A stretch of 64,000 nt of DNA, taken from NCBI GenBank assembly GCA_039908535.1, contig JAMOAW010000027.1, positions 10,705 through 74,704 on the forward strand, given 5' to 3'. The first letter of the stretch is position 1. Each line of letters starts with the position of its first letter. The notes under the pieces were generated by a model. It was not told where the DNA came from, did no database searches, and worked only from the letters and a program-made list of their open reading frames with translations. Origin of the DNA: Magnetococcus sp. DMHC-6. GTDB lineage: Bacteria; Pseudomonadota; Magnetococcia; Magnetococcales; JADFZT01. Below, in pieces: positions 7,732-59,466 of the stretch. Made by a program: the position numbers and the translations under genes.

Positions 7732-8577
7732 ATGTCTCTTACAATTAATAGCAATGTGGCAGCCTTGAGTGCGCAACGTCATATGAATAATACGACAAAT
7801 GCGCTGCAAAAAGTCTATACCCGTCTCTCTTCTGGGTTGCGCGTAAATAGCGCGGCGGATGATGCGGCTGGACTCTCTATCTCCAATCGTATGACGGCGC
7901 AAATTCGTGGTATGAATCAGGCCGTTCGCAATGCCAACGATGCCATCTCAATGGTTCAGGTGGCGGAAGGTGCTTTGGATGAAACGACCAATGCCTTGCA
8001 ACGTATTCGGGAACTGGCGGTCCAGGCCTCGAACGGGACGTTGACCAGTACAGATCGGTCGGATCTTCAGAAAGAGGTGGATCAGTTGATTGCAGAAGTG
8101 GATCGGATTGCAACGACCACTGAGTTTAACAATCAAGCCATGTTGCAAGGAAGTATGTCGGCGGGTAGAACTTTTCAGATTGGTAACGACGCCAATCAAA
8201 CGATTCGGGTCTCTATTGGGGCGGTCACATCGACGGCTTTGGGACTGGCGACGGTTTCTATGGGTGCGGGTGGTGCCAGTGCTGGGGTGGCGATTTCACT
8301 TGCCGGGGCCGCTATTACCGCTATGGATAGTGCTTTGGATTCGGTCTCGGCCATTCGTTCGACATTGGGTGCGTTTCAAAACCGTTTTGAGGCAACGATT
8401 TCTAGCCTTACCAATATTTCAGAAAACACCTCTGCGGCCCAATCGCGCATTATGGATGCAGATATTGCCGCAGAAACGGCCAATTTGACCCGTTATTCCA
8501 TTCTGCAACAGGCGGGCGTGGCGGTTATGGCTCAGGCCAATCAGCAACCTCAAATTGCGTTACGGTTGCTCAGTTAA
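7732..8577 (+). CDS. fliC: Flagellin (short, 281 aa)
   Basis: Conserved flagellin N-terminus ([24 protein letters not shown]) and C-terminus (NRFEATI...[32 protein letters not shown]). Confidence 0.95.
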
Positions 8578-8634
8578 TTGGTGGTGCTGGAGAATGGGTT
8601 GGGTCGACCATTTAAAATGAATGGCCTATAAATA

Positions 8635-8681
8635 CCAAGGAAGGTTGTCTGTTTGTTTGCAGACTCATTTTTTGATAGGAG
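8635..8681 (+). promoter_or_regulatory. Flagellin 5' leader (paralogous to 7672-7723)
   Basis: ccAAGGAAGG at 8635-8644, hairpin gtctg..cagac at 8647-8664, AGGAG at 8677-8681, ATG at 8691. Confidence 0.4.
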
Positions 8682-8690
8682 AAATACCTC

Positions 8691-19754: not shown

Positions 19755-21227
19755 ATGCTCGGATCGGTAACTTTTGGTGGATTGGCCAGTGGTTTGCCCA
19801 CGGATCTTGTCGATCAGCTTATGTCTGCTCAGCAAACGCGCAAGAAAACGTTGGAGAGAGATCGGGATTATTTTACCAAGCAACTGAGTACTTATGATAC
19901 TTTGGTCTCTAAGCTAAAGAGCTTTCAATCCACCGTTGAGGATTTGCAGTCGGCTTCCAGTTTTTCGCCGCATACAGCCAGTAGTTCCGATACCACGCGT
20001 ATTTCGATCTCCTCTGATAGTACGGCGGTGGAGGGGAATCATTCGGTGGAGGTCCAGAGGTTGGCGACCAATGCGACCTTTGTTGCCGATACCGGGACCG
20101 CAGCTTTGACCGATACGTTGGGACAGGCGGGTGGTACGTTTGATTTTTCCTATATCGGATCAGGAGGTACTCCTGAAGCCATTTCAGTTGCTTTTAACAG
20201 TACGGACACGTTGTCTGATTTGGTGAGCAAGATCAATTCTGCCGCATTCACGAGTGGATCCGGGTTTTCAGCCGGGGTGATGTATGATGGCAGCCAATAT
20301 CGTTTGACACTGACGGCCAAGGATGCGGGAGCTGGGGTGCGGGCTGCGGATGGCACAACGACCACCTCGCGGATTAGTGCGGTGAGTTTTTCGGCTAATG
20401 ATGCCTTTGCCTCTATAACCCAAACCAGAGCTGGCGTGGATGCCCAGATGAAGGTAGATGGGGTATCTAACATCTACAGCAGCAGCAACTCGGTGAATAA
20501 TGTTTTGACAGGTGTCACCATGTCGTTAGGTCAGGTTAGTTCTGGCGTGGTTCCTGGCGGTGCGGGTGTCGGTGCGGCGACCGGTTCTGACAATCAATTA
20601 GGTGGTACTGGTACCGATATTATGATCAGTATCAGCAATGACAGCACCACCTTGAAGACGACTCTGGATAGTTTTGTCACCGCTTATAATGATGTGATCA
20701 ATTTTATTTCAGGTCAGAAGGAGCAATATTTTTCTGGGGAGTCACTGACCCGTTCTATCGTTTCTCAGATGCGGAGTGTGATCAACACCCCCACGGGGGA
20801 TGGATCGGGAGGGACGTTAACTCCTTATTCGACTTTGGCGGAGATAGGATTGCGAACGGATCAAAAGTTGGGGACCATTAGTTTTGATTCGACTAAATTA
20901 GATGCCGCGATCAGTAGTAATTTTAAGGCGATCTCCTCTATATTCACCACCACCGATGCCACTGGTAACGATGGCGTTGCCCATCGCATGGCCGATCTTT
21001 TATCCGGGATTACCGACAGCACCGATGGTTCAGTGACAGCGCGCCAAGATGGTTTGCAAAATCGTATTGACAGTCAGCAGGAGCGTATTGATAAGGAGAC
21101 CATTCGTTTGGATGCAGAAAAGGAACGTTTGACCCTTAAATTTGCCACCCTGGAACGATTAATTACGCAAATGAAGGGTTCTTCAGGCTCTTTGGAATCT
21201 ACGCTGTCGAGTTTGAATAGTAAGTGA
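19755..21227 (+). CDS. fliD: Flagellar filament cap protein
   Basis: 490 aa. N-terminus SVTFGGLASGLPTDLVDQLMSAQ and a C-terminal coiled coil (RIDKETIRLDAEKERLTLKFATLERLITQM). Confidence 0.9.
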   Translation: MLGSVTFGGLASGLPTDLVDQLMSAQQTRKKTLERDRDYFTKQLSTYDTLVSKLKSFQSTVEDLQSASSFSPHTASSSDTTRISISSDSTAVEGNHSVEVQRLATNATFVADTGTAALTDTLGQAGGTFDFSYIGSGGTPEAISVAFNSTDTLSDLVSKINSAAFTSGSGFSAGVMYDGSQYRLTLTAKDAGAGVRAADGTTTTSRISAVSFSANDAFASITQTRAGVDAQMKVDGVSNIYSSSNSVNNVLTGVTMSLGQVSSGVVPGGAGVGAATGSDNQLGGTGTDIMISISNDSTTLKTTLDSFVTAYNDVINFISGQKEQYFSGESLTRSIVSQMRSVINTPTGDGSGGTLTPYSTLAEIGLRTDQKLGTISFDSTKLDAAISSNFKAISSIFTTTDATGNDGVAHRMADLLSGITDSTDGSVTARQDGLQNRIDSQQERIDKETIRLDAEKERLTLKFATLERLITQMKGSSGSLESTLSSLNSK

Positions 21228-21356
21228 TAGAGTCTGTTGGAATTGGAATGAATTTTGCTTAATTTTTAGTAACGTCTCAAAACGGCTTTTTTTTGAAACG
21301 TGTCATACTTTTGTCGGTTTTTTAATCATAACAAATTAGGATAGCGAGATTTGACC

Positions 21357-21752
21357 ATGATGCAGACGCAGAACTACCCAACCAGCTCTTTTGAATATAT
21401 TCCGCCGGCCAATGACCCAGACCAAGAGAGCCAATTGGATCTGTTGGTTCGTCTTTATGAGGGGGCCATCGCTTTTCTGAACAAGGCCATCAAGGCATGT
21501 GAATCTTCCGAAATTGATCAGTTTAAATATTTTATTCAAAGAGGACGCCGTATTATTGAGGAGTTTCAAAATACGCTCGATTTTACAGAAGGTGGTTTGG
21601 TTCCCACACAGTTAAATGATCTTTATGAATATATGCTCGACAGCTTGACACAGGCCACTTTGACTCACGATACCCTTTTTGTAGAACGGGTTAATGAGCA
21701 ACTGGAGGTTCTCCTGGATGGCTGGAGAGGCCTTCAGCAACCGAGTCACTAA
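21357..21752 (+). CDS. fliS: Flagellin-specific chaperone FliS (copy 1)
   Basis: LLVRLYEGAIAFL...EFQNTLDF..GG..QLNDLYEYM is the FliS four-helix pattern. ATG at 21357; the track start at 21351 is a TTG. Confidence 0.8.
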   Translation: MMQTQNYPTSSFEYIPPANDPDQESQLDLLVRLYEGAIAFLNKAIKACESSEIDQFKYFIQRGRRIIEEFQNTLDFTEGGLVPTQLNDLYEYMLDSLTQATLTHDTLFVERVNEQLEVLLDGWRGLQQPSH

Positions 21753-21766
21753 CGGAATCTGCTTAA

Positions 21767-22213
21767 ATGTCCTATGGTTTAAAAAGTTACAAAACCTCCA
21801 AGACCTATACCGCCTCTCGGGAAGATCTTTTAATCCTCTTATATGAGGGGGCGATACGTTTTCTTGAACGGTCCATCAAGGAGAAAGAGAGTGGGACCTT
21901 AAGCGAACATAAAATGTATTTGCGCAGAGGTCTATGTATTATTGCCGAACTGCAAAGTACATTAGATTTTCAGCAAGGGGGGGATTTGGCCATACAGTTG
22001 TTTGAACTGTATGGATATATGCTGGATCGGTTGACGCAAGCCAATTTGACCCAGGATATGGAGCACATCAGCAGAGTTATTGGGCATTTGAATACCTTAT
22101 TGGAAGGGTGGCGTGTCGCTGTAGCCCAGGTCAAAAAGGAAGGAGGTCTACCTGGCACAATGGGAACCGCCTCCGCCAATTCATCCTCTGTTGCACGTGT
22201 GAGTAGTTTATAG
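21767..22213 (+). CDS. fliS: FliS paralog (copy 2, with C-terminal extension)
   Basis: LLILLYEGAIRFL...ELQSTLDFQQGGDLAIQLFELYGYM is collinear with copy 1. Confidence 0.75.
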   Translation: MSYGLKSYKTSKTYTASREDLLILLYEGAIRFLERSIKEKESGTLSEHKMYLRRGLCIIAELQSTLDFQQGGDLAIQLFELYGYMLDRLTQANLTQDMEHISRVIGHLNTLLEGWRVAVAQVKKEGGLPGTMGTASANSSSVARVSSL

Positions 22214-25928: not shown

Positions 25929-26336
25929 TTATTTTACCTCTTCCACTTCCATTCGTTCAATATCTGCCAGAGTCACCCATCGTCCGTCCAAGGTGATAAA
26001 ACTGCGATTTTGTAAGGCGTTTTTATGGGCGAGGTAGGTGGTTGTCTGATTGGATTGGACGTTGATCACGCGAATTTTGACTTGCTGATGTTCTTCTTGC
26101 CAGTTATTGTAAAAAAACCAACTACTGGTGAGAAGTACGAAGGAAAAGGCTATGGTGAGAGCTATTTTATCGCCACGGCTGCGGGGAGCCCTTGGCGGTG
26201 GGGGCGGTGGCATGGGGCGATTGGCGTGAATGCGGCCTAAAAAATAGATGATCGCTATGACCAAAATAGAGAGGATTAATTTAAACAGCATGATTTTCCA
26301 TGAGTCATCGTTGTTTCTAGCCGATAAGGATAACAT
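25929..26336 (-). CDS. Small membrane protein, proline-rich loop
   Basis: Two hydrophobic segments and a PMPPPPPPRAP tract. No family recognised. Confidence 0.4.
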   Translation of the reverse strand: MLSLSARNNDDSWKIMLFKLILSILVIAIIYFLGRIHANRPMPPPPPPRAPRSRGDKIALTIAFSFVLLTSSWFFYNNWQEEHQQVKIRVINVQSNQTTTYLAHKNALQNRSFITLDGRWVTLADIERMEVEEVK

Positions 26337-26517
26337 CCCCAAAAATGGACTAGGTTATGAAATATACTATTCCAGGTCTAAATTGACACGATGGAAGCCA
26401 GTTGGCAAGGGTTGAGAGGCCTTTTAGTCGAGTGGTCTTTTTTTTATGGCTATTCTTGATGGTATAATGGACAATTATGTTCGGATGATTGGGTTGTTAT
26501 GATGAAAGGAGGATGAA

Positions 26518-27012
26518 ATGACATTACAACAAGGGGATCTTGACCAAATTGTTCAATATATTAAACCGCAATTTATCCTCTGGATGTCAGATCGGGTGTT
26601 GGAAAAACCCCATGAACTTTATGAAATTGAATGGCGTGAGCGCATTATTCGGGTTGAGGAGGCGTTAAAACATCAGCGTGAATTGATGCAGCAGGGGTTC
26701 GCAATGATGGGAAAACAGTTGGAACTGGAGGATAAACGGTTAGAGCAGGTGGATAAACGGTTAGAGCAGGTGGATAAACGGTTAGCTTTGCTACAATCTG
26801 AGATGGATAAACGGTTAGAGCAGGTGGATAAACGGTTAGCTTTGCTACAGTCTGAGATGGATAAACGGTTTGAGCAGGTGGATAAACGGTTTGAGCAGGT
26901 GGATAAACGGTTAGTTTTGCTACAATCTGAGATGGATAAACGGTTTGAGCAGGTGGATAAACGGTTAGTTTTGCTACAATCTGAGATGGATAAACGGTTC
27001 ATAAACGTTTAG
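26518..27012 (+). CDS. Heptad tandem-repeat (DKR[LF]EQV) coiled-coil protein, apparently frameshifted from its C-terminal membrane anchor
   Basis: Good RBS (aaaggagg) and ATG. Tandem 21- and 33-nt units from 26731. The frame starting at 27003 continues KRLEFLTQRIDRFMIWSFGITLALSGIVITALKILR* to 27113. Confidence 0.7.
   Translation: MTLQQGDLDQIVQYIKPQFILWMSDRVLEKPHELYEIEWRERIIRVEEALKHQRELMQQGFAMMGKQLELEDKRLEQVDKRLEQVDKRLALLQSEMDKRLEQVDKRLALLQSEMDKRFEQVDKRFEQVDKRLVLLQSEMDKRFEQVDKRLVLLQSEMDKRFINV
26731..27000 (+). repeat. In-frame tandem repeats (21-nt gataaacggttagagcaggtg and 33-nt gataaacggttagctttgctacaatctgagatg units)
   Basis: Read directly from the sequence. There is a higher-order duplication of the DKRLEQV/DKRLALLQSEM pattern with L->F and A->V variants. 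Confidence 0.95.
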
Positions 27013-27183
27013 AGTTTCTTACGCAACGGATTGATCGTTTTATGATTTGGTCCTTTGGTATAACGCTCGCTTTGTCGGGTATCGTCATCACAGCACTAAA
27101 AATTTTAAGATAATATTTTTTGAAATCTTTTATCGTTGGATATGTATATGAATGTCAATTGGCAAGGGGTGAGTGGTTCTGAA

Positions 27184-27633
27184 ATGCAAACCGAGTCGAT
27201 TGCGTCTCGGTTGGCGCAGGTGGCTCGAGTGGGGTTGGTGGTGGCGTTGGAGGGGGATTTGGGGGCGGGGAAAACCGTCTTTGCCCGTGGGTTTGTGCAT
27301 GGCATGGGGGTGGCGGATCCCTATGTCACCAGTCCGACATTTACCTTGCTCAATCCCTATTTGGAAGGCAAAATGCCCGTCTACCACTTCGATTTTTATC
27401 GGCTAGAATCCCCCGAAGAGTTGATTCAGATCGGGGCAGAGGGGTATTTGGGCACCGATGGGGTGGCCTTAGTGGAATGGCCAAGTCGGGCTGGAGATTG
27501 GATTCCTGCAGATCATCTGCGGGTGGTCTTGACATTTCGGGATGAGGAGCCTGACAAACGTTGGATCGAATTTCGGGCAACTGGCGGGCATAGCAATATG
27601 ATTTTGGCCGATTTTTGCCATTTGGAGGCATAG
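27184..27633 (+). CDS. tsaE: tRNA t6A biosynthesis ATPase TsaE (YjeE)
   Basis: GDLGAGKTVFARG..., VTSPTFTLLNPY, YHFDFYRL motifs. Start uncertain (TTG at 27136 in the track; ATG at 27184 preferred). Confidence 0.8.
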   Translation: MQTESIASRLAQVARVGLVVALEGDLGAGKTVFARGFVHGMGVADPYVTSPTFTLLNPYLEGKMPVYHFDFYRLESPEELIQIGAEGYLGTDGVALVEWPSRAGDWIPADHLRVVLTFRDEEPDKRWIEFRATGGHSNMILADFCHLEA

Positions 27634-43654: not shown

Positions 43655-44368
43655 TTAATTGTCGACCTGTGCTTCGCCAGGTCCGGTTATTTTGGCCATA
43701 AAACGTTTACGACTCTCTGGGTTGCGAATTTCAATTTGATCGCCGATGTGACCTTTATCCATCGAAATCCCGGTGGTTTGGATGGAGAGAGCACCATTGG
43801 TGACCCATATGTTGATTTTTTGACCTCGATCCACGGCCAAAGGGCGTTCAAACCAAGCCTCTTGCAGTGGACTTTTCTCTTTGATCAATCGATTGGCGGA
43901 TTTGCCGATCAACTCTTCTGGTTTTAAAATCAGGCCTGGATCCATGCGCACCAGCTCCAATTTTTGCCAACGAATGTCTGCTTCTGTCACGATATCGCCC
44001 CGTTTCAGCGTGTGACTGACAACAGGGATTTTTATTTTTTTATTTAAAACAACCGAAACCTGAAAATTGGCTTCTGGGGTGCCATTGACCAAAGCCGTGA
44101 CGGGCAGATAGTGTCGACCTGGCGTGCGTTCTTCTGTAGGAAAATCGATTTTCCAGGTTATTTTCCCCTCTTTTAAGGGGAGGCCAAAGCGATAATAGAC
44201 GCTTGCAACGGACAACCCTTCTGGACCTTCGGTTTGCAATTTTTCTTCCAGATATTTTTCAACAGAGCGTCCGACCTCTCCTGGTTCAAGCGTTGCCGCA
44301 TGGAGTACGGAGAAGGGGGACCACAGGGTCAAAGCGACCAATAAACCTGTGTTGATTGGTATTTGCAT
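43655..44368 (-). CDS. flgA: Flagellar P-ring assembly chaperone FlgA
   Basis: Signal peptide from the ATG at 44368 (MQIPINTGLLVALTLWSPFSVLHA). C-terminal SAF-like ..GDIVTEADI.. and GHIGDQIEIRNPESRKRFMAKI. Confidence 0.75.
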   Translation of the reverse strand: MQIPINTGLLVALTLWSPFSVLHAATLEPGEVGRSVEKYLEEKLQTEGPEGLSVASVYYRFGLPLKEGKITWKIDFPTEERTPGRHYLPVTALVNGTPEANFQVSVVLNKKIKIPVVSHTLKRGDIVTEADIRWQKLELVRMDPGLILKPEELIGKSANRLIKEKSPLQEAWFERPLAVDRGQKINIWVTNGALSIQTTGISMDKGHIGDQIEIRNPESRKRFMAKITGPGEAQVDN

Positions 44369-44498
44369 GGTGTTTTTTCTCACTAAAAAATGTTTTATCG
44401 TGAGATATCTTGCAAAAAATGAACCAAACATTTTTTTCTCCGTTTCCAGGCAGATGAGCTGGGAGACATCTTTATAAAAAACTCATATGAAACAGTTA

Positions 44499-45308
44499 TC
44501 AACGCTTCATAGAAGTCACAGCATTGAGCATAGAGTCCACCGTTTGAATGGATTTGGTTCCGGTCTCATAGGCCCGTTGGGTGGTGATCATATTGACCAT
44601 TTCAGTCACCATATTGACGTTGGATTGTTCCAGATAATGTTGCTGGATGGTGCCAAAACCGTCTGTATTTGGATTTCCGAGTTGGGGAACACCTGAGGCC
44701 ACGCTCTCTTTATAGAGGTTATTGCCGATGGCGGTGAGTCCTTCAGGATTGATAAAACGGGCCAGCTGAATCTGTCCAACATTTGGGGATGTGCCGGGGG
44801 GGGTGCTGGTTTTTAAATCAATGCTGCCAGAAGCTTGGACAACAATACCAGTGGTGGTATTTGGATCGAAACCAAGTTGTGCTCCGATCAGCGGATAGCC
44901 ATCAGAGGTGACGATATTGCCATCTGAAGATTTTTTAAAGCTGCCATCGCGGGTGTAGGCGGTTTCGCCGTTGGGCAGTTCGATTTGAAAAAAGCCTTGC
45001 CCTTGGACCATCATGTCTACATTCATGGGATCTTCACTGCTGGCGATGCCGCTGCCTTGGGTAAAATCTTTGCCGACCGACACGACTTTGACACCATGGC
45101 CCAGTTGAATTCCCACGGGGAGTTGGGTGCCAGCAGAGGAGGTTTCGCTGCCAGCGGCGCGCAAGTTGGCGTAGAGGAGATCTTGAAAGTCGGTGCGTGA
45201 ATGTTTAAACCCCGTGGTGTTGACGTTGGCCAGATTATCGGCAATGACGTCCATGTTGGTTTGTTGCGCTTGCATGCCAGTAGCGGCACTCCAAAGTGCG
45301 CGAATCAT
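44499..45308 (-). CDS. flgG: Flagellar distal rod protein
   Basis: MIRALWSAATGMQAQQTNMDVIADNLANVNTTGFK ... YLEQSNVNMVTEMVNMITTQRAYE. Confidence 0.9.
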   Translation of the reverse strand: MIRALWSAATGMQAQQTNMDVIADNLANVNTTGFKHSRTDFQDLLYANLRAAGSETSSAGTQLPVGIQLGHGVKVVSVGKDFTQGSGIASSEDPMNVDMMVQGQGFFQIELPNGETAYTRDGSFKKSSDGNIVTSDGYPLIGAQLGFDPNTTTGIVVQASGSIDLKTSTPPGTSPNVGQIQLARFINPEGLTAIGNNLYKESVASGVPQLGNPNTDGFGTIQQHYLEQSNVNMVTEMVNMITTQRAYETGTKSIQTVDSMLNAVTSMKR

Positions 45309-45338
45309 AAGCAGTTACTCCTTAATGAATGAGATTTT

Positions 45339-46148
45339 TTATTTTAAAGATCCGATTTGGTTGGCGGCCTGGTTGTCCATGGAATCCAGGGCTTGAATCA
45401 TTTTTTGATAGGTCTCCATGGCGCGGTTGGCATCAATCATGTTGGTCATGCTGCGGATCATGTTAGCGTTGGAGCCTTCTAGAAACCCTTGATGGATCCC
45501 TTCAGAACTGTTTTCCATGGCAATTTCTGCCCCTTGGGGGGCGGAATAGAGGTTTAATCCGACTTTTTCCAGAGACTCTGGAGGGAGATCAACTCGTTGG
45601 AGCCGACCAATATTGCCTTGTGATCCTGTGATGGTGCCATCTTCAGCAATGTGAATGGGACCGGCATCTCCCACCACCAGCGGGGCGTTGCCCGCTCCTA
45701 AAACGGGAAAGCCATCTTTTGAGGTGAGTTCGCCAACGGGATTGACCCGAAAAGAGCCATCGCGGGTGTAGCGGCGTCCATCTGGGGTGTCCAGAACGAA
45801 AAAACCTTTGCCTTCCAGGGCAACGTGCAACGGGTTGTTGGTCTGTTGCATGGCCCCTTGTTCCAGGTTGACATGGGTGCCATCGGCTCGGGGATAGGTC
45901 ATACGATAGGCGTTAGAGGCTGGATTGGTGAACGGAAAAGAGATATCTCCTGGAGCGCGTAATCCCATAAAGCTGTCGGTTGGCAATGGAAATTGTTCAA
46001 TGCCAGGGGATGTTAAATAGGAGTCAAAGGTGATATTATCCTCTTTAAAGCCAGTTGTGTTGACGTTGGCCAGATTGTTGGCCAATACGTCCATGCGCAT
46101 TTCGGTACGAAGGGCACCGTTGACGGTTGCGTATAATCCGCTATCCAT
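45339..46148 (-). CDS. flgF: Flagellar proximal rod protein
   Basis: LANNLANVNTTGFKED ... FLEGSNANMIRSMTNMIDANRAMETYQK. Lies upstream of flgG. Confidence 0.85.
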   Translation of the reverse strand: MDSGLYATVNGALRTEMRMDVLANNLANVNTTGFKEDNITFDSYLTSPGIEQFPLPTDSFMGLRAPGDISFPFTNPASNAYRMTYPRADGTHVNLEQGAMQQTNNPLHVALEGKGFFVLDTPDGRRYTRDGSFRVNPVGELTSKDGFPVLGAGNAPLVVGDAGPIHIAEDGTITGSQGNIGRLQRVDLPPESLEKVGLNLYSAPQGAEIAMENSSEGIHQGFLEGSNANMIRSMTNMIDANRAMETYQKMIQALDSMDNQAANQIGSLK

Positions 46149-52284: not shown

Positions 52285-54399
52285 TTAACAAGGTTGTATG
52301 TGCCGACATTGGGGGTATTGATTACAGCCTAAAAAATGATTGCCTGAATGATGCCCTCTTTTAGCAATGCGTTTAATCAGTTGTCCGGTGTGACATTTTG
52401 GACAGGGCAATAAATCCTCTGGTGATGATTGGGACAAAGAGGGGTCATTGGCTGATGCCGCCTGCTTGTTGGGGGGGCGTCGTCGGGGGCGCGGCATGGC
52501 TTTTGCGGCCGGCTGCGACGACGGTTGATCCATAAAATGGTTTGGTACTCCGGCAAAAATGGGCATTCCTAGACGTTCTTTTTCTTTGACATTGTGAATC
52601 AAACGTTGCACCCAGAAGATGGACTTATTTAAAAATTCTTGCAAGCCTTCCTGAGAGTTGGGCGAATGGGCAATATCATCCAGGGCCTGTTCCCAAACAG
52701 CGGTGGTGGCTGGATCGGTGACACTGTGGGGCAGCATATCCACTAAAGCCCGCCCGGCAGGCTGGCTGAGCAGGCTCTTTTTTCCCTCTTTTACCAAAAG
52801 GCCCCGTTTGAGTAAATTTTCAATGATTGATGCCCGAGTGGCTTCGGTGCCAATACCAGCTGTTTCGCGTAATATTTTACGTAGTCTTGGATCCTCAACT
52901 TGAAGGCCAATATTTTTCATGGCTTGAATCAGGGTGCCTTCGGTATAGCGTTCAGGTGGTTTGGTCTGCTTTTCGTGCATTTGCGCATCAACCACCTGCA
53001 CGGGTTGGCCAATTTGGACCTGGGGCAGGGGGTGGGTATCTTCTTGCTCGGCGGATTTTTTATCTTCTTGGCGCAACACTTGTTTCCAGCCAGCAATTTT
53101 TTCCACCCGGCCCGAAGCCCGAAATAATTCTTGTTGGATCAGAGCCTGAAGAATGGTTTGGTCATATTCAAAAGCGGGAAAAAATTGTGCTAGATAATGG
53201 CGACGAATGAGATCATAAACCTGTTTCTCCTCATGGGACATGTTTTCCAAATGGACCTTGGACCCGGTTGGAATAATGGCATGGTGGGCAGTGATTTTGG
53301 TATCGTTCCAGGCCTTTGAAATCAGAGAACTATCTGCGGCTTGAATCAAAGGGATTAAAGAGGGATCGGATTGGGTTAAAGCCGCAAAAATAGTAGGGAC
53401 ATCATTTCGTTGTGAGCAGGGTAGATAGCGGCAGTCGGTACGCGGATAGGTGATGGCCTTGTGTTTTTCATAAAGAGCCTGTGCGACCTCCAGGAGGCGT
53501 TGCGCCCCCATTCCCCAGCGTCTGGAGGCCTCTTGTTGCAGAGTAGAGAGTTCCAAGGGCAGGGGGGGGGATTCTTGTTTTCTTTTGGTCTCGGCACTTT
53601 GGATTACGCCCGTTTGACCCTGAACCTTGGTGACGACTTGGTCTGCTAACTCTTTATTGAGGCAGCGGCCTTCTTCATCGGTGTGGGCTTTGGGCGGGAT
53701 CCATTTGGCCTGAAATTGGCCTTTTTCAACCTGCAATTGTACCAAAACATCAAAATAGGCCACGGGTTTAAAATTTTCAATCAATCGATCCCGATCCACC
53801 ACCAATTTTAAGGTGGGGGTTTGGACGCGACCGACGGTTAAAACCCCCTGATATCCGTTACGCTGTCCCAAGAGGGTATAGGCGCGGGAGAGATTCATAC
53901 CTACCAACCAATCCGCTCGTGATCGACCCAGTCCGGCAAGATAGAGGGGTTCGGTCTGCTGACCAGGAAGCAAAGTCGCCAATGCTTTGCGAATGCTCGC
54001 CTCATCAAGTGCAGAGAGCCATAAACGGGAGATTTTGCCTCGATATAAACAGTATTCCAACACCTCACGACCGATGGTCTCCCCTTCGCGATCGGCATCC
54101 GTGGCCAAAACGACTTCGTGGACCCCTTTTAACAACCCTTTGATAATTTTTAATTGTTTGCTCACCTGGGAGCGGACTTCTAATTGCCAATGTTCTGGAA
54201 TAATGGGAAGGGTGTGCAGTTGCCAAGTTTTCCATTCTGGTTTGTAGGCATCCGGGGAGAGTAACTCCAGAAGGTGTCCAATGCACCAAGTGACTTGGGA
54301 GCCGCTTCCCTCCAGGTAGCCATCGCGTTTGCCCGTTGCACCTAAAACAGAAGCAATATCACGGGCTTGGGAGGGCTTTTCACATAGGTATAAAATCAT
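52285..54399 (-). CDS. topB: DNA topoisomerase III with C-terminal zinc-ribbon
   Basis: MILYLCEKPSQARDIA, Toprim DADREGE, active-site region ITYPRTDCRYL, and C-terminal CPKC...GCNQYPQC. ATG at 54399; the track start at 54408 is a TTG. Confidence 0.85.
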   Translation of the reverse strand: MILYLCEKPSQARDIASVLGATGKRDGYLEGSGSQVTWCIGHLLELLSPDAYKPEWKTWQLHTLPIIPEHWQLEVRSQVSKQLKIIKGLLKGVHEVVLATDADREGETIGREVLEYCLYRGKISRLWLSALDEASIRKALATLLPGQQTEPLYLAGLGRSRADWLVGMNLSRAYTLLGQRNGYQGVLTVGRVQTPTLKLVVDRDRLIENFKPVAYFDVLVQLQVEKGQFQAKWIPPKAHTDEEGRCLNKELADQVVTKVQGQTGVIQSAETKRKQESPPLPLELSTLQQEASRRWGMGAQRLLEVAQALYEKHKAITYPRTDCRYLPCSQRNDVPTIFAALTQSDPSLIPLIQAADSSLISKAWNDTKITAHHAIIPTGSKVHLENMSHEEKQVYDLIRRHYLAQFFPAFEYDQTILQALIQQELFRASGRVEKIAGWKQVLRQEDKKSAEQEDTHPLPQVQIGQPVQVVDAQMHEKQTKPPERYTEGTLIQAMKNIGLQVEDPRLRKILRETAGIGTEATRASIIENLLKRGLLVKEGKKSLLSQPAGRALVDMLPHSVTDPATTAVWEQALDDIAHSPNSQEGLQEFLNKSIFWVQRLIHNVKEKERLGMPIFAGVPNHFMDQPSSQPAAKAMPRPRRRPPNKQAASANDPSLSQSSPEDLLPCPKCHTGQLIKRIAKRGHHSGNHFLGCNQYPQCRHIQPC

Positions 54400-54428
54400 A
54401 AGATCCAAGAACTATAAAAAGTTGTATA

Positions 54429-55055
54429 TCAGAACAATTTAAACATTTTGCCAAGCATACCTGTAATCGATATGGCCGAAAACAGAATGGCAAAAGTAAA
54501 AAGTCGAATGGTGAGCATGCGATTTTCCCGCAAACCGGCATCAATTTTAACATCAATGCGTTCCAATAATTTGTCCAATTTGTTACCAACTTCTTTAATT
54601 TCAACATGCATTTCTTCGAAGCGTTTGTCCACCTGTTCGAAGCGTTTGTCCACCTGTTCGAAGCGTTTGTCCACCTGTTCGAATCGTGTATTTATATCGA
54701 GACGGTTTTTATTAAAATTTTCTTTTGTATCTGTCCTCAAATCATCAATACGTTTATCGATCTGTTCGAAGCGATTATCTACCTGTTCAAACCGTGTGTT
54801 TATATCGAGACGGCTTTTATTAAAGTTTTCTTTTGTATCTGTTCTCAGTCCATCAATATGTTTATCTAATTGTTCAAATTGATATTTTGTATCTTTTTTG
54901 AACTCGTTAAGTTCGGTACGGACATGAAGGATATCATGTTGCAGGTGGTCGAAGCGAACTTCGAGATATTTGGTTGTTGGAACAAAATTAGCGAGCAACA
55001 TATCGATTGTTTTTTTGTCTAAAGGCAAGCTAATTGGATTTTCCTGTTCAGTCAT
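54429..55055 (-). CDS. Heptad tandem-repeat (DKRFEQV) coiled-coil protein with C-terminal membrane anchor
   Basis: 208 aa. RFEQVDKRFEQVDKRFEQVDKRFEEM and a duplicated ~39-aa unit. C-terminal TM LTIRLFTFAILFSAISITGMLG. Paralogous in architecture to 26518-27113. Confidence 0.7.
   Translation of the reverse strand: MTEQENPISLPLDKKTIDMLLANFVPTTKYLEVRFDHLQHDILHVRTELNEFKKDTKYQFEQLDKHIDGLRTDTKENFNKSRLDINTRFEQVDNRFEQIDKRIDDLRTDTKENFNKNRLDINTRFEQVDKRFEQVDKRFEQVDKRFEEMHVEIKEVGNKLDKLLERIDVKIDAGLRENRMLTIRLFTFAILFSAISITGMLGKMFKLF
54615..54677 (-). repeat. Three exact 21-nt tandem units (ttcgaagcgtttgtccacctg on the + strand)
   Basis: Read directly from the sequence. Encodes (QVDKRFE)x3. Confidence 0.95.
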
Positions 55056-55146: not shown

Positions 55147-58100
55147 TTAGAGGTTCCCTTGGATCATCTTGAGCAATTCCGTGGCTGAGAGCTTACCGCT
55201 TATTTCTCCCCCTTCAAGCAATCCGTCGGCTAAGTCGCGTTTATGTTTGTGGAGATCGACGATTTTTTCTTCGATGGAGTTTTTGGTGACCAATCGATAA
55301 ATGGTGACCGGGCGTTGTTGACCGATGCGGTGGGCGCGGTCCGAGGCTTGGTCTTCCACGGCTGGGTTCCACCATGGATCCATATGAATGACATAATCGG
55401 CGGCGGTCAGATTGATTCCCAATCCACCCGCCTTTAGACTGATTAAAAAGAGATCGCCTTCCCCAGATTGAAAGGCCTCTACCCGTTTTTTGCGCTCTTT
55501 AGCGGGGGTGGAGCCGTCTAAAAATTGATAGAACACCTTTTTTTGATCGAGAAGTTGGCGGACGATGGTTAGATGATCGACAAATTGGCTAAATACCAAT
55601 ACCTTATGGCGGTTTTCCAATAAATTTTCTACCACCTCCCAGAAAAGCAATAATTTACTGCTTATAATGGGACTGTCTGGCAAGACCAGACGACTGTTGC
55701 AGCAGGCCCGTCGCAACCGCATGATTTGCGCCAAAATTTGCAAATGGTTGTGTGCCATTGGTCCTTGAAAATTTTCGATCTCCTCAATAGCCTGTCTACG
55801 AATAGATTCGTAAAAGGCGGTCTCTTCTGGGCTCATCTCCACCTGCAAGGTGATTTCGGTGCGTGGGGGTAGTTCGTCCAGAACTTGGCTTTTGGTACGG
55901 CGTAATATAAAGGGTTGGATCAATTTTTTTAAGCGATGCCGGGCTTCGGAATGGGGGTCACGTTCAATGGAAGCGGCAAAACGTTCGTTAAACCGTTCCA
56001 GAGTGCCCAGTAGTCCTGGATTGATAAATTGAAATAAATTCCAAAATTCCCCAAGATGATTTTCAATAGGGGTCCCTGTGGTGACCATTTTAAAGGCTGC
56101 TTTGAGATTCATGACCGCTTTGGAGCGTTTGGTCAGACGGTTTTTGATGGCCTGCGCTTCGTCCACCACCAACACGTTCCAGTTTATTGTAGCGAAAAGA
56201 TCGGCCTCTTGTTGTAGTAAACCATAACTGCAAATCATGAGGTCAAAGGGGCGCAGCTCTTGTAATATTTGCGTCCGTTGGGTGCCACCAAATAGAATTC
56301 CGTTGAGGGTAGGGGCAAAGCGGAGGATTTCGGTTTGCCAGTTCATGCAGACCGAGGTGGGGGCGATTACCAAGGAGGGGCCTTGTTGGGCTCTTGAGAG
56401 GAGTAATGCCATGGTCTGTACGGTTTTTCCCAATCCCATGTCGTCGGCCAAACAGGCCCCAACCCCCCAGGCGGCCAAACGGGAGAGCCAACGATAGCCT
56501 ACCTGTTGATAATCCCGCAGTTCGGTTTGTAAGGTGGAGGGCAGCGGTGGATCCAGGGTTTGGGCTTGATCCACCCGTTTGAGATGGGCTTTCCAATGGT
56601 TGTCGGACCTGAAGGCTCCTGCCTCTTGGCTCAATTCGCGGAGAAGGGGGCCAGCCAGGGGGTGAAAACGTTGACCTTGCGCACTTTTTTCTGAAAAAGC
56701 CTCCATATCCAGTAACCGCTTGCGAAAGGCCTCGGTCAGGGTGATAAATTCATGGTTGCCAATGGGGATAAAGCGGCTCTCTTTTTTGTGTAGGAGTTCT
56801 AGGAGTTCTCCCATTTCTAAAATGAGCGTTTCATCAATGTGTAATTGGCCAGTGAGGGCAAACCAATTTTGGTCACGTTTGACCTGAATGCGCAGTTTAT
56901 CCATGGTGATTGGAGGACGCACGCGCATTTTTTCTCCTTCGGGCCACTCCACCACCACCTGATCATTGAGCGTTTGCAGTTGTAAGAGCAACTCTAAACA
57001 ATGGTCGGGGTCGTCCAATTGCCACTGCCCGGGTTCTCTCTCGCTGCCGACCAATTGGGGGCAGAGGGTGAGTAACTGTTGCAAGCGTTTTTTTTCTTCA
57101 TCCAACTGGCGATGGGTTTGTACCCGTTGCCCTTTGATTTCGGCCAGAATAGTCTGTCCCCCCTGCCCAGGAAGAAAGGTGGGGCCTTCATCGGTAAAAG
57201 GGCGTACTAAAAGGTTTATTTTTAAACCATCCCCAAGGGGAGAGAGGGAAAGATGGGGTCTGGAATCGGCAGGAACTTCAGTTAAATTTTCAACACCGCC
57301 TCCAATATGGGATTGCACAGTGACCAACGATGCCAGAGAGTGCATGGCCTCTAAGACCCGTTGTTGCTCCTGGGCGGGAATTTCGAGTCCCTTTTCCCCT
57401 AAAATATCGGCAATGCGTTTGTGGGCTGGGGTAATTTCGATCACTTTGCAGCGGGTTGGGGAGACCTTGCGAAAAATTACGCCAAGATGTTCAATTTTTT
57501 CCGAGAAATTCATCAGGACCACCCCTTTGGACCGATTGACTAACAATTCTGGTTCGGCCTGAACCACCTCTAAATTGAGTTCAGGCTGATCTTCCCAAAA
57601 GAGCATTGGATGGCCGACCAAGGCCAAGAGCAAACGATCCTTAGAAAATGAATAAAAGGTGCCGCCAAAAGCTGGGGTCTCTTGAACAATGGTGGCGCAA
57701 ATTTTGCGATCATGATCGCTTAAAAAATCCAAATGTTGGGTCTCCTCGTACAACCTGTTTAAGGCGACTGGGCGACCCTTGGTCCATCCTTTGCCATGGG
57801 TATTGGTCTGCAAGAGGGGTTGTATGCTGACTTGATGACCGAGAAGTTGCAGCATCCAAATCAATCGGGTTTGGGTGGCACTGGTGGGTTGATGAGAAGA
57901 TTTTCCACTGCCATCGCCCCCTATGGAGATCAAGGCCTTTAAGGCCCGTTCCCAGCGTTCCTCTTTGGCGACAATGGTCATCATGCTTTGTAGACCGGTG
58001 TTGGCCTGTACGGTAGCGGCGAATTCGGCAGCGGCACTGTTTTTCGGTTGGAGCAGGGCCAACAAAGAGGCCGCCTCCATGGCTGCCCATTGGTAGCCAT

Positions 58101-59385
58101 TTTTTTTGGCCTGATTAAAAATAACTTCCAACTCATAAGGTTTGGCGCGGGCATATTCTTGATCGATCCAAATGCGGGCCATAACTTGAAAGAGTTTGGT
58201 AAAAAGGGTCTCATTCTTTGAAGTTAAACGTTTTAAATCGCCATTATTCAAAGAGACGGCATCCATCAACAGCCCCGTTTCCAGAAGAATAATGGCTTTT
58301 CTGGTTTCATTGTTTTGCGCCAGGAATACCGCATCCATAAAACGCAGACTGGGAATGGTGTTTTGCAGTTTGAGATCGCGAATTAAAATTAAAAATTCTT
58401 CTAAACGATGATATTGTCCGGGATCACCGGTTTTGAGTAACGCCAATAAAAAAAAGAGTCCACCTAAGTCAGGGAAAAAAATTTTACGTTTACGAGTAGA
58501 TCTCTTGAGTTCCAAAAAGGCCGTTTCAAATGCTTCCAAAGCCATATCGTTTTTGCCAAGCAGGAAATAGATCCAACCTTGCAAAGAGGAGTGATGCATA
58601 ATAGACAATTCGCCATCTAAAATTTTTTGAGCCAGCGCGATTTGTCCTTGAAAAATGAGGGTCATGACTAATAGATAACGAAATCGTCCGGCAATAATGC
58701 TGTCAGAACATTGTTTATGATAGAGATGTAGGAGAGGCAGCAGAGACGTGACGTTTTCAAATTGACTTAAAAGATAAGGGACCATCTCTTCCAGAACCAT
58801 TGCCTGGATGGTCAAAGGTAACGTCTGAAACCAATTTATATCGAAGGGATATCCACACGCAGTGGTCAAGAGTGGATTGAGTTTGGTCTCTTTTGGAAAT
58901 TGATTTTGGCATAAGGTGATATAAAATTCCATCTGTTTGAGGTTATGGTCAAACAGGGCCAAGCGAATTTCTCGGATGCCACGGGTAAAACTGTGTAATT
59001 TTTTGGCTTGGGTATAATAAACGCGTATGGCGGGTAACTCTGTCTGGATCACCCTGGCCAACTCCTGAAACCGTCCCTCTTGGATAGCCAGATGGGTGGC
59101 AAAGGTCAAGAGTGGTGTTGCACAGCGAAATTGATTCAAAGAGGCATCCTCTTGTTCTAGTAAGCCCAAACGGTACAATTTGGCCAGAATGGTTTTTAAT
59201 TCATTATTGGTCAGAGGTAAATTTTTCTCCCCGCGAATGGGTGTGGCCTGAAGAATTCGGGTCAGATTGGTGGCATGGATTGATTCCATCAAAATGGCCA
59301 GAAATTGGATGACTTCTCGTTCGATTTGGGTTGTTTTATTAAAGTGTTCCAACCAAGAGGGGGTGTTAAGGTCTAAAGAAGTCAT
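55147..59385 (-). CDS. SNF2-family helicase (about 1412 aa) with a ~900-aa uncharacterised N-terminal region
   Basis: Motif I LADDMGLGKT, motif II DEAQAIKN, motif VI DPWWNPAVEDQASDRAHRIGQ. ATG at 59385; the track start at 59409 is a TTG. Confidence 0.85.
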   Translation of the reverse strand: MTSLDLNTPSWLEHFNKTTQIEREVIQFLAILMESIHATNLTRILQATPIRGEKNLPLTNNELKTILAKLYRLGLLEQEDASLNQFRCATPLLTFATHLAIQEGRFQELARVIQTELPAIRVYYTQAKKLHSFTRGIREIRLALFDHNLKQMEFYITLCQNQFPKETKLNPLLTTACGYPFDINWFQTLPLTIQAMVLEEMVPYLLSQFENVTSLLPLLHLYHKQCSDSIIAGRFRYLLVMTLIFQGQIALAQKILDGELSIMHHSSLQGWIYFLLGKNDMALEAFETAFLELKRSTRKRKIFFPDLGGLFFLLALLKTGDPGQYHRLEEFLILIRDLKLQNTIPSLRFMDAVFLAQNNETRKAIILLETGLLMDAVSLNNGDLKRLTSKNETLFTKLFQVMARIWIDQEYARAKPYELEVIFNQAKKNGYQWAAMEAASLLALLQPKNSAAAEFAATVQANTGLQSMMTIVAKEERWERALKALISIGGDGSGKSSHQPTSATQTRLIWMLQLLGHQVSIQPLLQTNTHGKGWTKGRPVALNRLYEETQHLDFLSDHDRKICATIVQETPAFGGTFYSFSKDRLLLALVGHPMLFWEDQPELNLEVVQAEPELLVNRSKGVVLMNFSEKIEHLGVIFRKVSPTRCKVIEITPAHKRIADILGEKGLEIPAQEQQRVLEAMHSLASLVTVQSHIGGGVENLTEVPADSRPHLSLSPLGDGLKINLLVRPFTDEGPTFLPGQGGQTILAEIKGQRVQTHRQLDEEKKRLQQLLTLCPQLVGSEREPGQWQLDDPDHCLELLLQLQTLNDQVVVEWPEGEKMRVRPPITMDKLRIQVKRDQNWFALTGQLHIDETLILEMGELLELLHKKESRFIPIGNHEFITLTEAFRKRLLDMEAFSEKSAQGQRFHPLAGPLLRELSQEAGAFRSDNHWKAHLKRVDQAQTLDPPLPSTLQTELRDYQQVGYRWLSRLAAWGVGACLADDMGLGKTVQTMALLLSRAQQGPSLVIAPTSVCMNWQTEILRFAPTLNGILFGGTQRTQILQELRPFDLMICSYGLLQQEADLFATINWNVLVVDEAQAIKNRLTKRSKAVMNLKAAFKMVTTGTPIENHLGEFWNLFQFINPGLLGTLERFNERFAASIERDPHSEARHRLKKLIQPFILRRTKSQVLDELPPRTEITLQVEMSPEETAFYESIRRQAIEEIENFQGPMAHNHLQILAQIMRLRRACCNSRLVLPDSPIISSKLLLFWEVVENLLENRHKVLVFSQFVDHLTIVRQLLDQKKVFYQFLDGSTPAKERKKRVEAFQSGEGDLFLISLKAGGLGINLTAADYVIHMDPWWNPAVEDQASDRAHRIGQQRPVTIYRLVTKNSIEEKIVDLHKHKRDLADGLLEGGEISGKLSATELLKMIQGNL

Positions 59386-59466
59386 CGTTTTTTTCCAGTG
59401 GATCACCAAAGGTTCTGGTTGAGGTTTAATGAAGGGGAGATGGGTGATTCTACATAGGTGCCAAAT

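What the first reader, a model, noticed from the sequence alone, without database searches (positions are those of the whole stretch)
26518..27113. Tandem-repeat coiled-coil gene separated from its membrane anchor by an 11-nt near-duplication
The ORF is a run of DKRLEQV / DKRLALLQSEM / DKRFEQV / DKRLVLLQSEM units (21- and 33-nt repeats) and stops at 27012. The frame starting at 27003 encodes KRLEFLTQRIDRFMIWSFGITLALSGIVITALKILR*. This is exactly the RID-plus-TM ending seen in the intact paralog at 54429-55055. At the junction, ATAAACGGTTC (26990-27000) is followed by ATAAACGTTTA (27001-27011), a 9/11 match. Deleting the first 11 nt restores one continuous ORF (...SEMDKRLEFLTQRIDRFMIW...). The possibilities are a slipped-strand event in a repeat-rich gene that uncouples the coiled coil from the membrane (possible on/off variation), a pseudogene, or an assembly error.
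Basis: seen in the sequence. Interest (0 to 1): 0.6.

Follow-up and report, generated by a model that had tools for sequence, protein, structure and literature searches.

The report
Frameshifted tail-anchored coiled-coil repeat gene
A small repeat-rich gene for a membrane-anchored coiled-coil protein in an uncultured magnetotactic coccus is cut off from its anchor by an 11-base partial repeat that shifts the reading frame. This is most likely an ordinary, recent disabling mutation in a dispensable acquired gene, not a genetic switch.

Summary
ORF 26518-27012 has an N-terminal domain, then ten in-frame 21/33-nt units, then a truncated 11-nt unit. It stops at TAG 27010-12. The -1 frame (27003-27113) encodes the missing end, ...LEFLTQRIDRFMIWSFG plus a transmembrane helix.

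The repaired protein aligns end to end with a large uncharacterised family. That family has a conserved about 60-aa helical head, variable DKRFEQV heptads and 11-residue units, and a C-terminal anchor. All 120 best hits keep the anchor, and 58 of 62 genes scored in other genomes are one uninterrupted ORF.

The window matches MAG Magnetococcus sp. DMHC-6 (Illumina MiSeq). Relatives carry a CBS gene or nothing at this position. Low GC and a flanking 29-nt repeat suggest the gene was acquired.

Nothing supports a switch or programmed frameshifting:
- there is no slippery heptamer and no RNA structure;
- all repeat periods in the family are multiples of 3;
- there are only two imperfect 11-nt copies.

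One other family member (L070) carries a similar 2x11-nt lesion, and two carry nonsense mutations.

Verdict: a recent inactivating frameshift (about 0.6). An assembly or minor-variant artefact (about 0.2) cannot be excluded without reads. Low interest.

The parts
26391..26419 (+). Upstream copy of a 29-nt imperfect direct repeat (ATGGAAGCCAGTTGGCAAGGGTTGAGAGG). It opens a 22-codon relic ORF, MEASWQGLRG.., that resembles the TsaE N-terminus.
   Evidence: family D3, 23 of 29 identical; 2 of 500 shuffles reach the score. Translation.
26460..26468 (+). TGGTATAAT, an extended -10-like promoter element about 50 nt upstream of the start codon. Inferred only.
   Evidence: Read from the sequence. The consensus scan did not flag it because the -35 is poor.
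26508..26512 (+). Shine-Dalgarno GGAGG, 5 nt before the ATG.
   Evidence: Sequence.
26518..27012 (+). Truncated ORF as it stands: 164 aa, made of head domain, coiled-coil repeats and a missense tail FINV, with no membrane anchor.
26518..26715 (+). Conserved N-terminal head: helix 5-27, loop, then the start of the long helix (..YEIEWRERIIRVEEALKHQRELMQQGF).
   Evidence: Alignment. AF2 model with pLDDT 91. 141 cluster representatives match this domain alone.
26731..26988 (+). Ten in-frame tandem units: six 21-nt heptad units (DKR[LF]EQV) and four 33-nt 11-residue units (DKRL[AV]LLQSEM).
26989..27000 (+). The lesion: a truncated 11-nt unit GATAAACGGTT plus C27000. It shifts the downstream sequence into the -1 frame.
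27003..27113 (+). Orphaned 3' end of the gene in the -1 frame: the last heptads (KRLEFLTQRIDRF), the transmembrane helix (MIWSFGITLALSGIVITAL, 27042-27098), then KILR and the stop. It is still undecayed and close to the family consensus.
   Evidence: Family C-termini.
27148..27176 (+). Downstream copy of the 29-nt direct repeat. It is the true 5' end of tsaE (MNVNWQGVSG..).
   Evidence: The TsaE start is confirmed by exact match to NCBI MEO5377459.1.
27148..27633 (+). tsaE, the first gene of the conserved tsaE-amgK-murU block. The repeat gene sits just upstream of it.
   Evidence: Synteny.
25929..26342 (-). Conserved small membrane-protein gene that marks the other edge of the variable slot. 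It is the ortholog of the 131-134-aa gene in relatives.
   Evidence: MEO5377457.1.
54429..55055 (-). Second, intact repeat protein with a C-terminal anchor. It is related only through the RFEQVDK repeats and is not a true paralog of the head or the anchor.
   Evidence: MEO5377483.1, hypothetical protein.

Best explanation
What it is. This is a recently frameshifted, probably non-functional copy of a gene from a widespread but uncharacterised family of small tail-anchored inner-membrane proteins.

The intact protein, inferred from homologs. It has a cytoplasmic helical-hairpin head of about 60 aa. One long coiled-coil stalk follows, built from DNA-level tandem 21-nt (heptad) and 33-nt (11-residue) units. 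A single C-terminal transmembrane helix ends the protein, with only 0-11 residues (3-4 in most) beyond it.

What happened here. In Magnetococcus sp. DMHC-6 the gene sits in a variable slot just upstream of tsaE and looks acquired. A complex indel at the last repeat boundary left an 11-nt partial unit. This can be read as an 11-nt gain or as a 10-nt loss from a 21-nt unit. Translation therefore ends at 27012 after four missense residues. The product, if stable, is a soluble head plus stalk without its anchor. The anchor-coding remnant has no start codon or ribosome-binding site of its own.

Shown: the sequence, the family architecture, the synteny and the absence of frameshift signals. Inferred: the topology, the loss of function and the recency of the event.
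For: - Sequence and frames.
- The repaired protein matches more than 4700 database proteins over 99% of its length. These share the head, the repeats, the LTxRIDRFMxWSFG motif and the TM helix.
- All 120 best hits have a C-terminal hydrophobic run of at least 14 aa.
- 58 of 62 head-to-anchor motif pairs in 80 genome loci lie in one uninterrupted ORF.
- The orphaned tail is still stop-free and close to the family consensus in its conserved LTQRIDRFMIWSFGIT segment, so the event is recent.
- Other copies of the family are also broken, as expected for a dispensable multi-copy gene. L070 is frameshifted by two 11-nt units. L008 and L059 carry nonsense codons, and L008 has an intact copy 1.2 kb away.
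- The source is an Illumina MiSeq MAG, and 20 other genes in the window are full length.
- Relatives have a CBS gene or nothing at this position. GC is 40-42% against 50-54% in the flanking genes, and a 29-nt repeat flanks the segment. Together these point to an acquired, non-core gene.
- There is no slippery site, no significant RNA structure (z = -1.1) and no Rfam hit at the junction.
Against: - No reads and no close relative are available. The best homolog is 55% identical, an exact-match metagenome scan found nothing, and a tail-specific protein search found nothing. So the allele frequency in the population and the ancestral junction are unknown.
- The lesion is not explained by one simple slippage event, since every model needs an extra substitution.
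- The promoter, the ribosome-binding site and the tail are all intact, which is also what an artefact or a reversible switch would look like.
- NCBI accession and locus-tag numbering suggest the depositors' annotation treats the locus as an ordinary CDS rather than a pseudogene, although I could not retrieve that protein.
Confidence: 0.62

Rival explanations
1. Assembly artefact, sequencing artefact or unrepresentative consensus. The organism's real gene, or its majority allele, is intact. The 11 nt would come from a misassembled repeat, a minority strain variant, or an amplification chimera in the magnetically enriched sample.
For: - The source is a binned metagenome assembly, not an isolate.
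- The lesion lies inside a 270-nt array of near-identical repeats, the kind of place where assemblies go wrong.
- The downstream tail shows no decay.
Against: - Repeat collapse or expansion in a de Bruijn assembly moves by whole units (21, 33 or 54 nt, all in frame). It cannot invent the unique junction GGTTCATAAACG; this point is inference.
- Illumina indel error is low.
- No other split gene was found among 20 checked in the window.
- An analogous 11-nt-unit lesion exists in an independent genome (L070), so such mutations do occur, or recur as the same artefact.
Confidence: 0.2
2. Reversible phase variation. Gain and loss of 11-nt units at the repeat boundary toggles the protein between an anchored and a soluble or absent form.
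For: - Two adjacent 11-nt units share a 7-nt perfect core (ATAAACG), so precise reversion by deletion is mechanistically possible.
- A second family member (L070) carries two tandem GATAAGCGGTG units that arose between AAGCGGT repeats 11 nt apart.
- The expression signals and the tail are intact.
Against: - There are only two copies, 9 of 11 identical. Classical contingency tracts have many perfect copies.
- All array periods in 79 of 81 family genes are multiples of 3.
- Motif spacings are 21 nt (282 times) and 33 nt (61 times), with 11 nt only in L070.
- The two lesions lie at different positions in the gene.
- No population data exist.
Confidence: 0.07
3. The truncated soluble head-plus-stalk protein has been retained because it has a function of its own, for example as a dominant-negative partner or regulator of anchored family members elsewhere in the genome.
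For: - The strong Shine-Dalgarno and promoter-like elements are retained.
- The family is often multi-copy, with tandem pairs, so hetero-oligomers are conceivable.
- The model predicts an uninterrupted 130-residue helix.
Against: - None of the 120 best homologs lacks the anchor.
- There are no signs of age or selection. The orphan tail is intact, which implies a very recent event.
- No second head-domain family copy was found in the window.
Confidence: 0.05
4. Programmed -1 ribosomal frameshifting makes both a soluble and an anchored product from one mRNA.
For: The downstream frame is -1 relative to the ORF, and the two frames overlap by 19 nt (26994-27012).
Against: - There is no X XXY YYZ heptamer in the overlap (CGG TTC ATA AAC GTT TAG, by inspection).
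- The downstream fold is not better than shuffles (z = -1.1).
- There is no Rfam element.
- Homologs are single ORFs.
Confidence: 0.02

Closest known systems
Uncharacterised 'hypothetical protein' family with DKRFEQV repeats. Examples: Thiowin_02053 of Thiorhodovibrio winogradskyi, G8237_12955 of a Magnetococcales MAG, SAMN05216326_11623 of Nitrosomonas marina.
   Same: - The same conserved head (..YEIELRERMVRVEEELKHQRELMQQGF).
- The same heptad and 11-residue DNA-level repeats.
- The same LTxRIDRFMxWSFG motif and C-terminal TM after repair.
- 45-55% identity over 99% of the length.
   Different: The window copy is split by a frameshift, so as it stands it lacks the anchor. It also uses L in place of F in many units and has an unusually high share of 33-nt units.
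DUF1640 / CCDC90 family (MCUR1, CCDC90B; Pfam PF07798). These are membrane proteins of prokaryotes and mitochondria with a head, a coiled-coil stalk and a C-terminal TM (PMC4786415).
   Same: The overall plan is the same: head, coiled-coil stalk and a single C-terminal transmembrane helix. UniRef labels two homologs 'DUF1640 domain-containing'.
   Different: - No Pfam DUF1640 match for the repaired protein (E <= 1) or for any of the 40 aligned sequences (the repaired protein plus 39 homologs; E <= 0.01).
- The [aliphatic]-A-T-K-x-[DE] beta-layer motif described at the start of the DUF1640 stalk is not evident.
- A PDB profile search gives only generic coiled-coil hits.
Borrelia Bdr (direct-repeat) proteins (from my own knowledge).
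   Same: Small proteins with a variable number of tandem repeat units of 33 nt (11 residues), a C-terminal hydrophobic anchor to the inner membrane, multi-copy paralogous families and unknown function.
   Different: The repeat sequence is different (a KID-type motif) and there is no shared head domain. Homology was not tested here.
XhlA-type small coiled-coil proteins with a C-terminal TM (phage 'hemolysin', phrog_1193).
   Same: An N-terminal coiled coil followed by one C-terminal TM. Homolog P0002 gives a weak PHROG hit (4.8e-5).
   Different: The hit is weak and covers only the coiled coil and TM. The best PHROG matches (phrog_6701, phrog_20262) have unknown function. There is no phage context here.
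Simple-sequence contingency loci (phase-variable genes of Neisseria and Haemophilus).
   Same: A repeat-associated frame shift inside a coding region with intact expression signals.
   Different: Those have many perfect copies of a short unit not divisible by 3. Here there are two imperfect 11-nt copies inside arrays whose natural periods are all multiples of 3.

Membership tests
DKRFEQV-repeat tail-anchored family (uncharacterised) | Conserved N-terminal helical head of about 60 aa (R40, E41, R42, R45, V46, E47, Q53.. nearly invariant) | tested here: met
   Alignments. 70% identity to P0021 in this domain and 141 cluster representatives.
DKRFEQV-repeat tail-anchored family (uncharacterised) | Tandem 7- and 11-residue units encoded by 21/33-nt DNA repeats | tested here: met
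   The same periods occur in 79 of 81 family genes.
DKRFEQV-repeat tail-anchored family (uncharacterised) | C-terminal LTxRIDRFMxWSFG motif and TM helix in the same ORF | tested here: not met
   The motif and TM are present but sit in the -1 frame. The feature is met only after removing the lesion. The locus is therefore a disrupted member.
DUF1640 / CCDC90 (PF07798) | Significant match to the Pfam model | tested here: not met
   No hit at E <= 1 for the repaired protein. None of the 40 aligned sequences (the repaired protein plus 39 homologs) hits at E <= 0.01.
DUF1640 / CCDC90 (PF07798) | Beta-layer motif [aliphatic]-A-T-K-polar-[DE] at the start of the stalk (PMC4786415) | tested here: inconclusive
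   The motif is not seen in the window protein by inspection. Many homologs begin MALAxEDL / MALATEDI, which only loosely resembles it. No structural test was made.
DUF1640 / CCDC90 (PF07798) | Head, coiled-coil stalk and single C-terminal TM | tested here: met
   The AF2 model has helix 5-27 and helix 32-163. The TM lies in the repaired tail.
Phase-variable contingency locus | Tract of several perfect tandem copies of a unit whose length is not a multiple of 3 | tested here: not met
   There are two copies, 9 of 11 identical. All TRF periods are multiples of 3.
Phase-variable contingency locus | Copy-number polymorphism within a population or between strains | not testable with these tools
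   No reads are available. No relative is closer than 55%, and the scans were empty.
Programmed -1 ribosomal frameshift | Slippery heptamer X XXY YYZ in the overlap | tested here: not met
   The overlap 26994-27012 (ACGGTTCATAAACGTTTAG) contains none, by inspection.
Programmed -1 ribosomal frameshift | Downstream stimulatory RNA structure, and the two-ORF layout conserved in homologs | tested here: not met
   z = -1.1, no Rfam hit, and 58 of 62 homologs are single ORFs.
Borrelia Bdr proteins | Sequence homology to the Bdr repeat and anchor | not tested
   The resemblance is recalled from memory only. No Bdr sequence was compared.

The most novel reading that the evidence does not exclude
In this protein family the 21-nt heptad units contain sub-repeats spaced 10-11 nt apart. 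These sub-repeats occasionally generate 11-nt units. Such units could act as a reversible frame switch that releases the coiled-coil head and stalk from the membrane, or silences the gene. The window and L070 would be two independent 'OFF/soluble' states of such a switch.
Probability: 0.06. Interest if true: 0.5.

Novelty: new member of a known kind. Interest (0 to 1): 0.17.

Why it matters
By itself it matters little. It is one more broken copy of a non-essential hypothetical gene in a draft genome, and it should be annotated as frameshifted rather than as a 164-aa protein.

Two side results have modest value:
- The gene belongs to a large family that is absent from Pfam and NCBIfam. The family consists of tail-anchored coiled-coil proteins whose stalk length varies through in-frame 21/33-nt DNA repeats. 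It occurs in purple sulfur bacteria, nitrifiers, sulfate reducers, spirochaetes and magnetotactic cocci. Coiled-coil specialists might use it as a natural series mixing heptad and 11-residue periodicity.
- The locus shows a small gene inserted at the 5' end of tsaE, apparently with duplication of the target.

If the switch reading were true, it would be an unusual case of a long-unit phase switch that controls membrane anchoring.

Tried and rejected
- Pfam, NCBIfam, PHROGs: only coiled-coil noise, or phage families of unknown function.
- PDB by sequence, PDB by profile, and Foldseek with the AF2 model: nothing specific.
- Conserved gene neighbourhood across 80 loci: none found, and no tsaE synteny.
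- Exact look-ups of the 164-aa ORF, alternative starts and the antisense ORF: not in the collections.
- The contig of the source MAG is not in the contig index.
- Exact 26-mer scan of metagenomes: 0 hits.
- Tail-specific protein search: 0 hits.
- Plasmid collection: one irrelevant hit.
- Literature search for the repeat motif: 0 papers.
- -1 PRF, rejected: no slippery site and no structure.
- Simple single-step slippage models for the lesion, rejected: each needs extra substitutions (and inspection).
- The apparent 'frame changes' in L043 and L061 lie across runs of N (L061's broken frames shown; L043's).
- The ARAGORN tRNA-Arg call at 20521-20593 lies inside an intact FliD gene, so it is probably false.

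Full report
**1. Observation**

- An ORF with a strong Shine-Dalgarno (GGAGG 26508-12) starts at ATG 26518.
- After a non-repetitive stretch of about 70 codons it runs through ten in-frame tandem units at 26731-26988. Six are 21-nt units encoding DKR[LF]EQV. Four are 33-nt units encoding DKRL[AV]LLQSEM.
- The 11-mer GATAAACGGTT that begins every unit occurs 11 times exactly, against about 1.1 expected. TRF reports arrays of period 21, 54, 75 and 129 at 95-100% match.
- The eleventh copy (26989-26999) is not followed by the rest of a unit. Instead it is followed by C and then ATAAACGTTTAGAG..., the start of the last, diverged unit.
- The zero frame therefore reads DKRFINV and stops at TAG 27010-12.
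- The -1 frame, open from 26994, reads ..KRLEFLTQRIDRFMIWSFGITLALSGIVITALKILR* up to 27113.

Three repairs all give a single ORF with continuous heptad phase into the hydrophobic tail:
- removing 26990-27000 gives 194 aa;
- restoring a full 21-nt unit (+10 nt, with C27000 changed to G) gives 201 aa;
- adding one base gives 198 aa.

The '9/11 near-duplication' is thus the same thing as 'a repeat unit truncated to 11 nt'. No model is a clean one-step slippage.

**2. What the gene is**

The repaired protein finds more than 4700 database proteins, and the best 120 are 125-222 aa long. The listed hits mostly cover 99% of the query, and the ones read out share its whole architecture:
- a conserved head (MALAQEDL..I..YIK...WL.EQSLGKPP.VYEIELRERMVRVEEELKHQRELMQQGF);
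- a variable number of DKRFEQV-type units;
- the motif LTxRIDRFMxWSFG;
- a hydrophobic helix followed by 0-11 residues (3-4 in most).

All 120 best hits have the C-terminal hydrophobic run.

In 80 loci fetched from species-representative genomes, 58 of 62 head-to-anchor motif pairs lie in one uninterrupted ORF. Among these genes plus the window's own copy, 79 of 81 carry DNA-level tandem arrays. Every array period is a multiple of 3: 21, 33, 42, 54, 63, 75.... The spacing between successive D-K-R codon motifs is 21 nt 282 times and 33 nt 61 times.

An AlphaFold model of the window ORF (pLDDT 91) is a helix (residues 5-27), a short loop, and one uninterrupted helix (residues 32-163). There is no signal peptide.

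My inference is a tail-anchored inner-membrane protein. Its helical-hairpin head would be held in the cytoplasm on a coiled-coil stalk, and the stalk length would drift by in-frame repeat gain and loss.

The family is not captured by curated resources:
- Pfam and NCBIfam give nothing above threshold, and in particular no DUF1640 match in any of the 40 aligned sequences, although UniRef labels two homologs that way.
- No solved structure matches by sequence, profile or fold.
- The best PHROG matches have unknown function.
- There is no conserved gene neighbourhood.
- Several genomes carry multiple copies, sometimes in tandem.
- The function is unknown, and I found no paper on the repeat motif.

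**3. Source and local context**

The adjacent AmgK-like protein is 100% identical to a protein of 'MAG: Magnetococcus sp. DMHC-6' on a 75.9-kb contig. Three neighbouring proteins of the window are exact matches to that record. DMHC-6 is an uncultured freshwater magnetotactic coccus. Its genome was sequenced on Illumina MiSeq, then assembled and binned (PMC9840458).

The nearest available relatives have AmgK at 64-67% identity. They keep the order small membrane gene (-) / [CBS-domain gene or nothing] / tsaE-amgK-murU. In the window, the repeat gene occupies that variable slot.

Three observations suggest acquisition:
- The 757-bp segment carrying the gene is bounded by a 29-nt imperfect direct repeat, 26391-26419 and 27148-27176. 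23 of 29 positions match, and 2 of 500 shuffles reach the score.
- The downstream copy of that repeat is the real start of tsaE.
- The segment is 40% GC, against 54% for tsaE and 50% for amgK.

This fits a lineage-specific insertion at the 5' end of tsaE. I hold this as a reasonable inference, not a demonstration.

**4. Nature of the frameshift**

Against programmed frameshifting:
- The 19-nt overlap has no X XXY YYZ heptamer.
- The downstream RNA folds no better than shuffles (z = -1.1).
- There is no Rfam hit.
- Homologs are single ORFs.

Against a dedicated phase switch:
- There are only two imperfect 11-nt copies.
- The family's natural repeat periods keep the frame.

In favour of such lesions being a recurrent accident of this repeat type:
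- L070, a gammaproteobacterial genome, has a family member frameshifted by two tandem GATAAGCGGTG units. These were generated between AAGCGGT sub-repeats 11 nt apart.
- Two further copies (L008, L059) carry nonsense codons, and L008 has an intact copy next door.
- So a few percent of copies are broken in different ways, as expected for a dispensable multi-copy gene.

On the artefact question:
- Repeat collapse in a k-mer assembly shifts by whole units and cannot create the unique junction GGTTCATAAACG (inference).
- Illumina indel rates are low.
- 20 other genes checked in the window are full length.
- Even so, a MAG consensus may represent a minority haplotype, and I had no access to reads.
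- No close relative or independent assembly could be found.
- Equal differences in NCBI accession numbers and locus tags between flanking genes (26 and 26) suggest the depositors' annotation has an ordinary CDS here, not a flagged pseudogene. I could not retrieve it.

**5. Verdict**

- Most likely (about 0.6): a real and recent frameshift that truncates the protein before its anchor. The orphan tail has no start codon or ribosome-binding site of its own. It has not decayed, so the event is young.
- Artefact or minor variant: about 0.2.
- Reversible switch: about 0.07.
- Retained soluble function: about 0.05.
- Recoding: about 0.02.

Its appeal to the 'paralog' at 54429-55055 is weak, because that protein shares only the repeats (37% over 126 aa) and has a different head and anchor. 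The thing itself is ordinary, and only the family it belongs to is mildly interesting.

Noticed in passing
window 26391-26419 and 27148-27176 (segment 26420-27147): An imperfect 29-nt direct repeat brackets the repeat gene. The downstream copy is the true tsaE start, and the upstream copy opens a relic MEASWQGLRG ORF. The bracketed segment is 40% GC against 54% for tsaE. Relatives have a CBS gene or nothing at this position. This looks like a small gene inserted at the 5' end of tsaE with duplication of the target.
   Followed up: partly
L070 6200-6300 (Gammaproteobacteria bacterium CCP3-SC15AN1): An independent family member is frameshifted inside its repeats by two tandem 11-nt units, GATAAGCGGTG GATAAGCGGTG, and its anchor-coding tail is intact. 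This is the same class of lesion as in the window.
   Followed up: partly
L008 about 6036 and L059 about 6069: Two other family members carry an in-frame stop near the N-terminus, at the E and W positions of the consensus. L008 has an intact paralog 1.2 kb upstream.
   Followed up: no
family-wide (P0001-P0120, L001-L082): The family is widespread (at least 4700 sequences) and absent from Pfam and NCBIfam. It consists of tail-anchored coiled-coil proteins whose stalks are DNA-level tandem arrays mixing 21-nt and 33-nt units. It is often multi-copy or in tandem pairs and has no conserved neighbour. It occurs in Chromatiaceae, Nitrosomonas, Desulfobacterales, spirochaetes and Magnetococcales.
   Followed up: partly
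window 54429-55055 (-): A second, intact repeat protein (RFEQVDK units, C-terminal anchor, 36% GC) lies between a topoisomerase III gene (52285-54408) and a 1420-aa SNF2-family helicase gene (55147-59409). Its head and anchor are unrelated to the first gene. NCBI calls it hypothetical protein H7832_06845.
   Followed up: partly
window 27087-27114: A sigma-70-like promoter match (ATCACA-16-GATAAT) lies inside the 3' end of the repeat gene, just upstream of tsaE. It could drive tsaE independently of the inserted gene.
   Followed up: no
window 20521-20593: ARAGORN calls a tRNA-Arg(CCT) inside the intact FliD gene (19755-21227). It is probably a false positive.
   Followed up: partly
window 7732-9536 and 21351-22213: There are tandem duplicate flagellin genes (two of 281 aa) and tandem duplicate fliS genes. 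The window is rich in flagellar genes (fliD; flgN, a Rod-binding (FlgJ-like) gene, flgI and flgH confirmed by Pfam, with unchecked ORFs beside them at 43655-46148).
   Followed up: no
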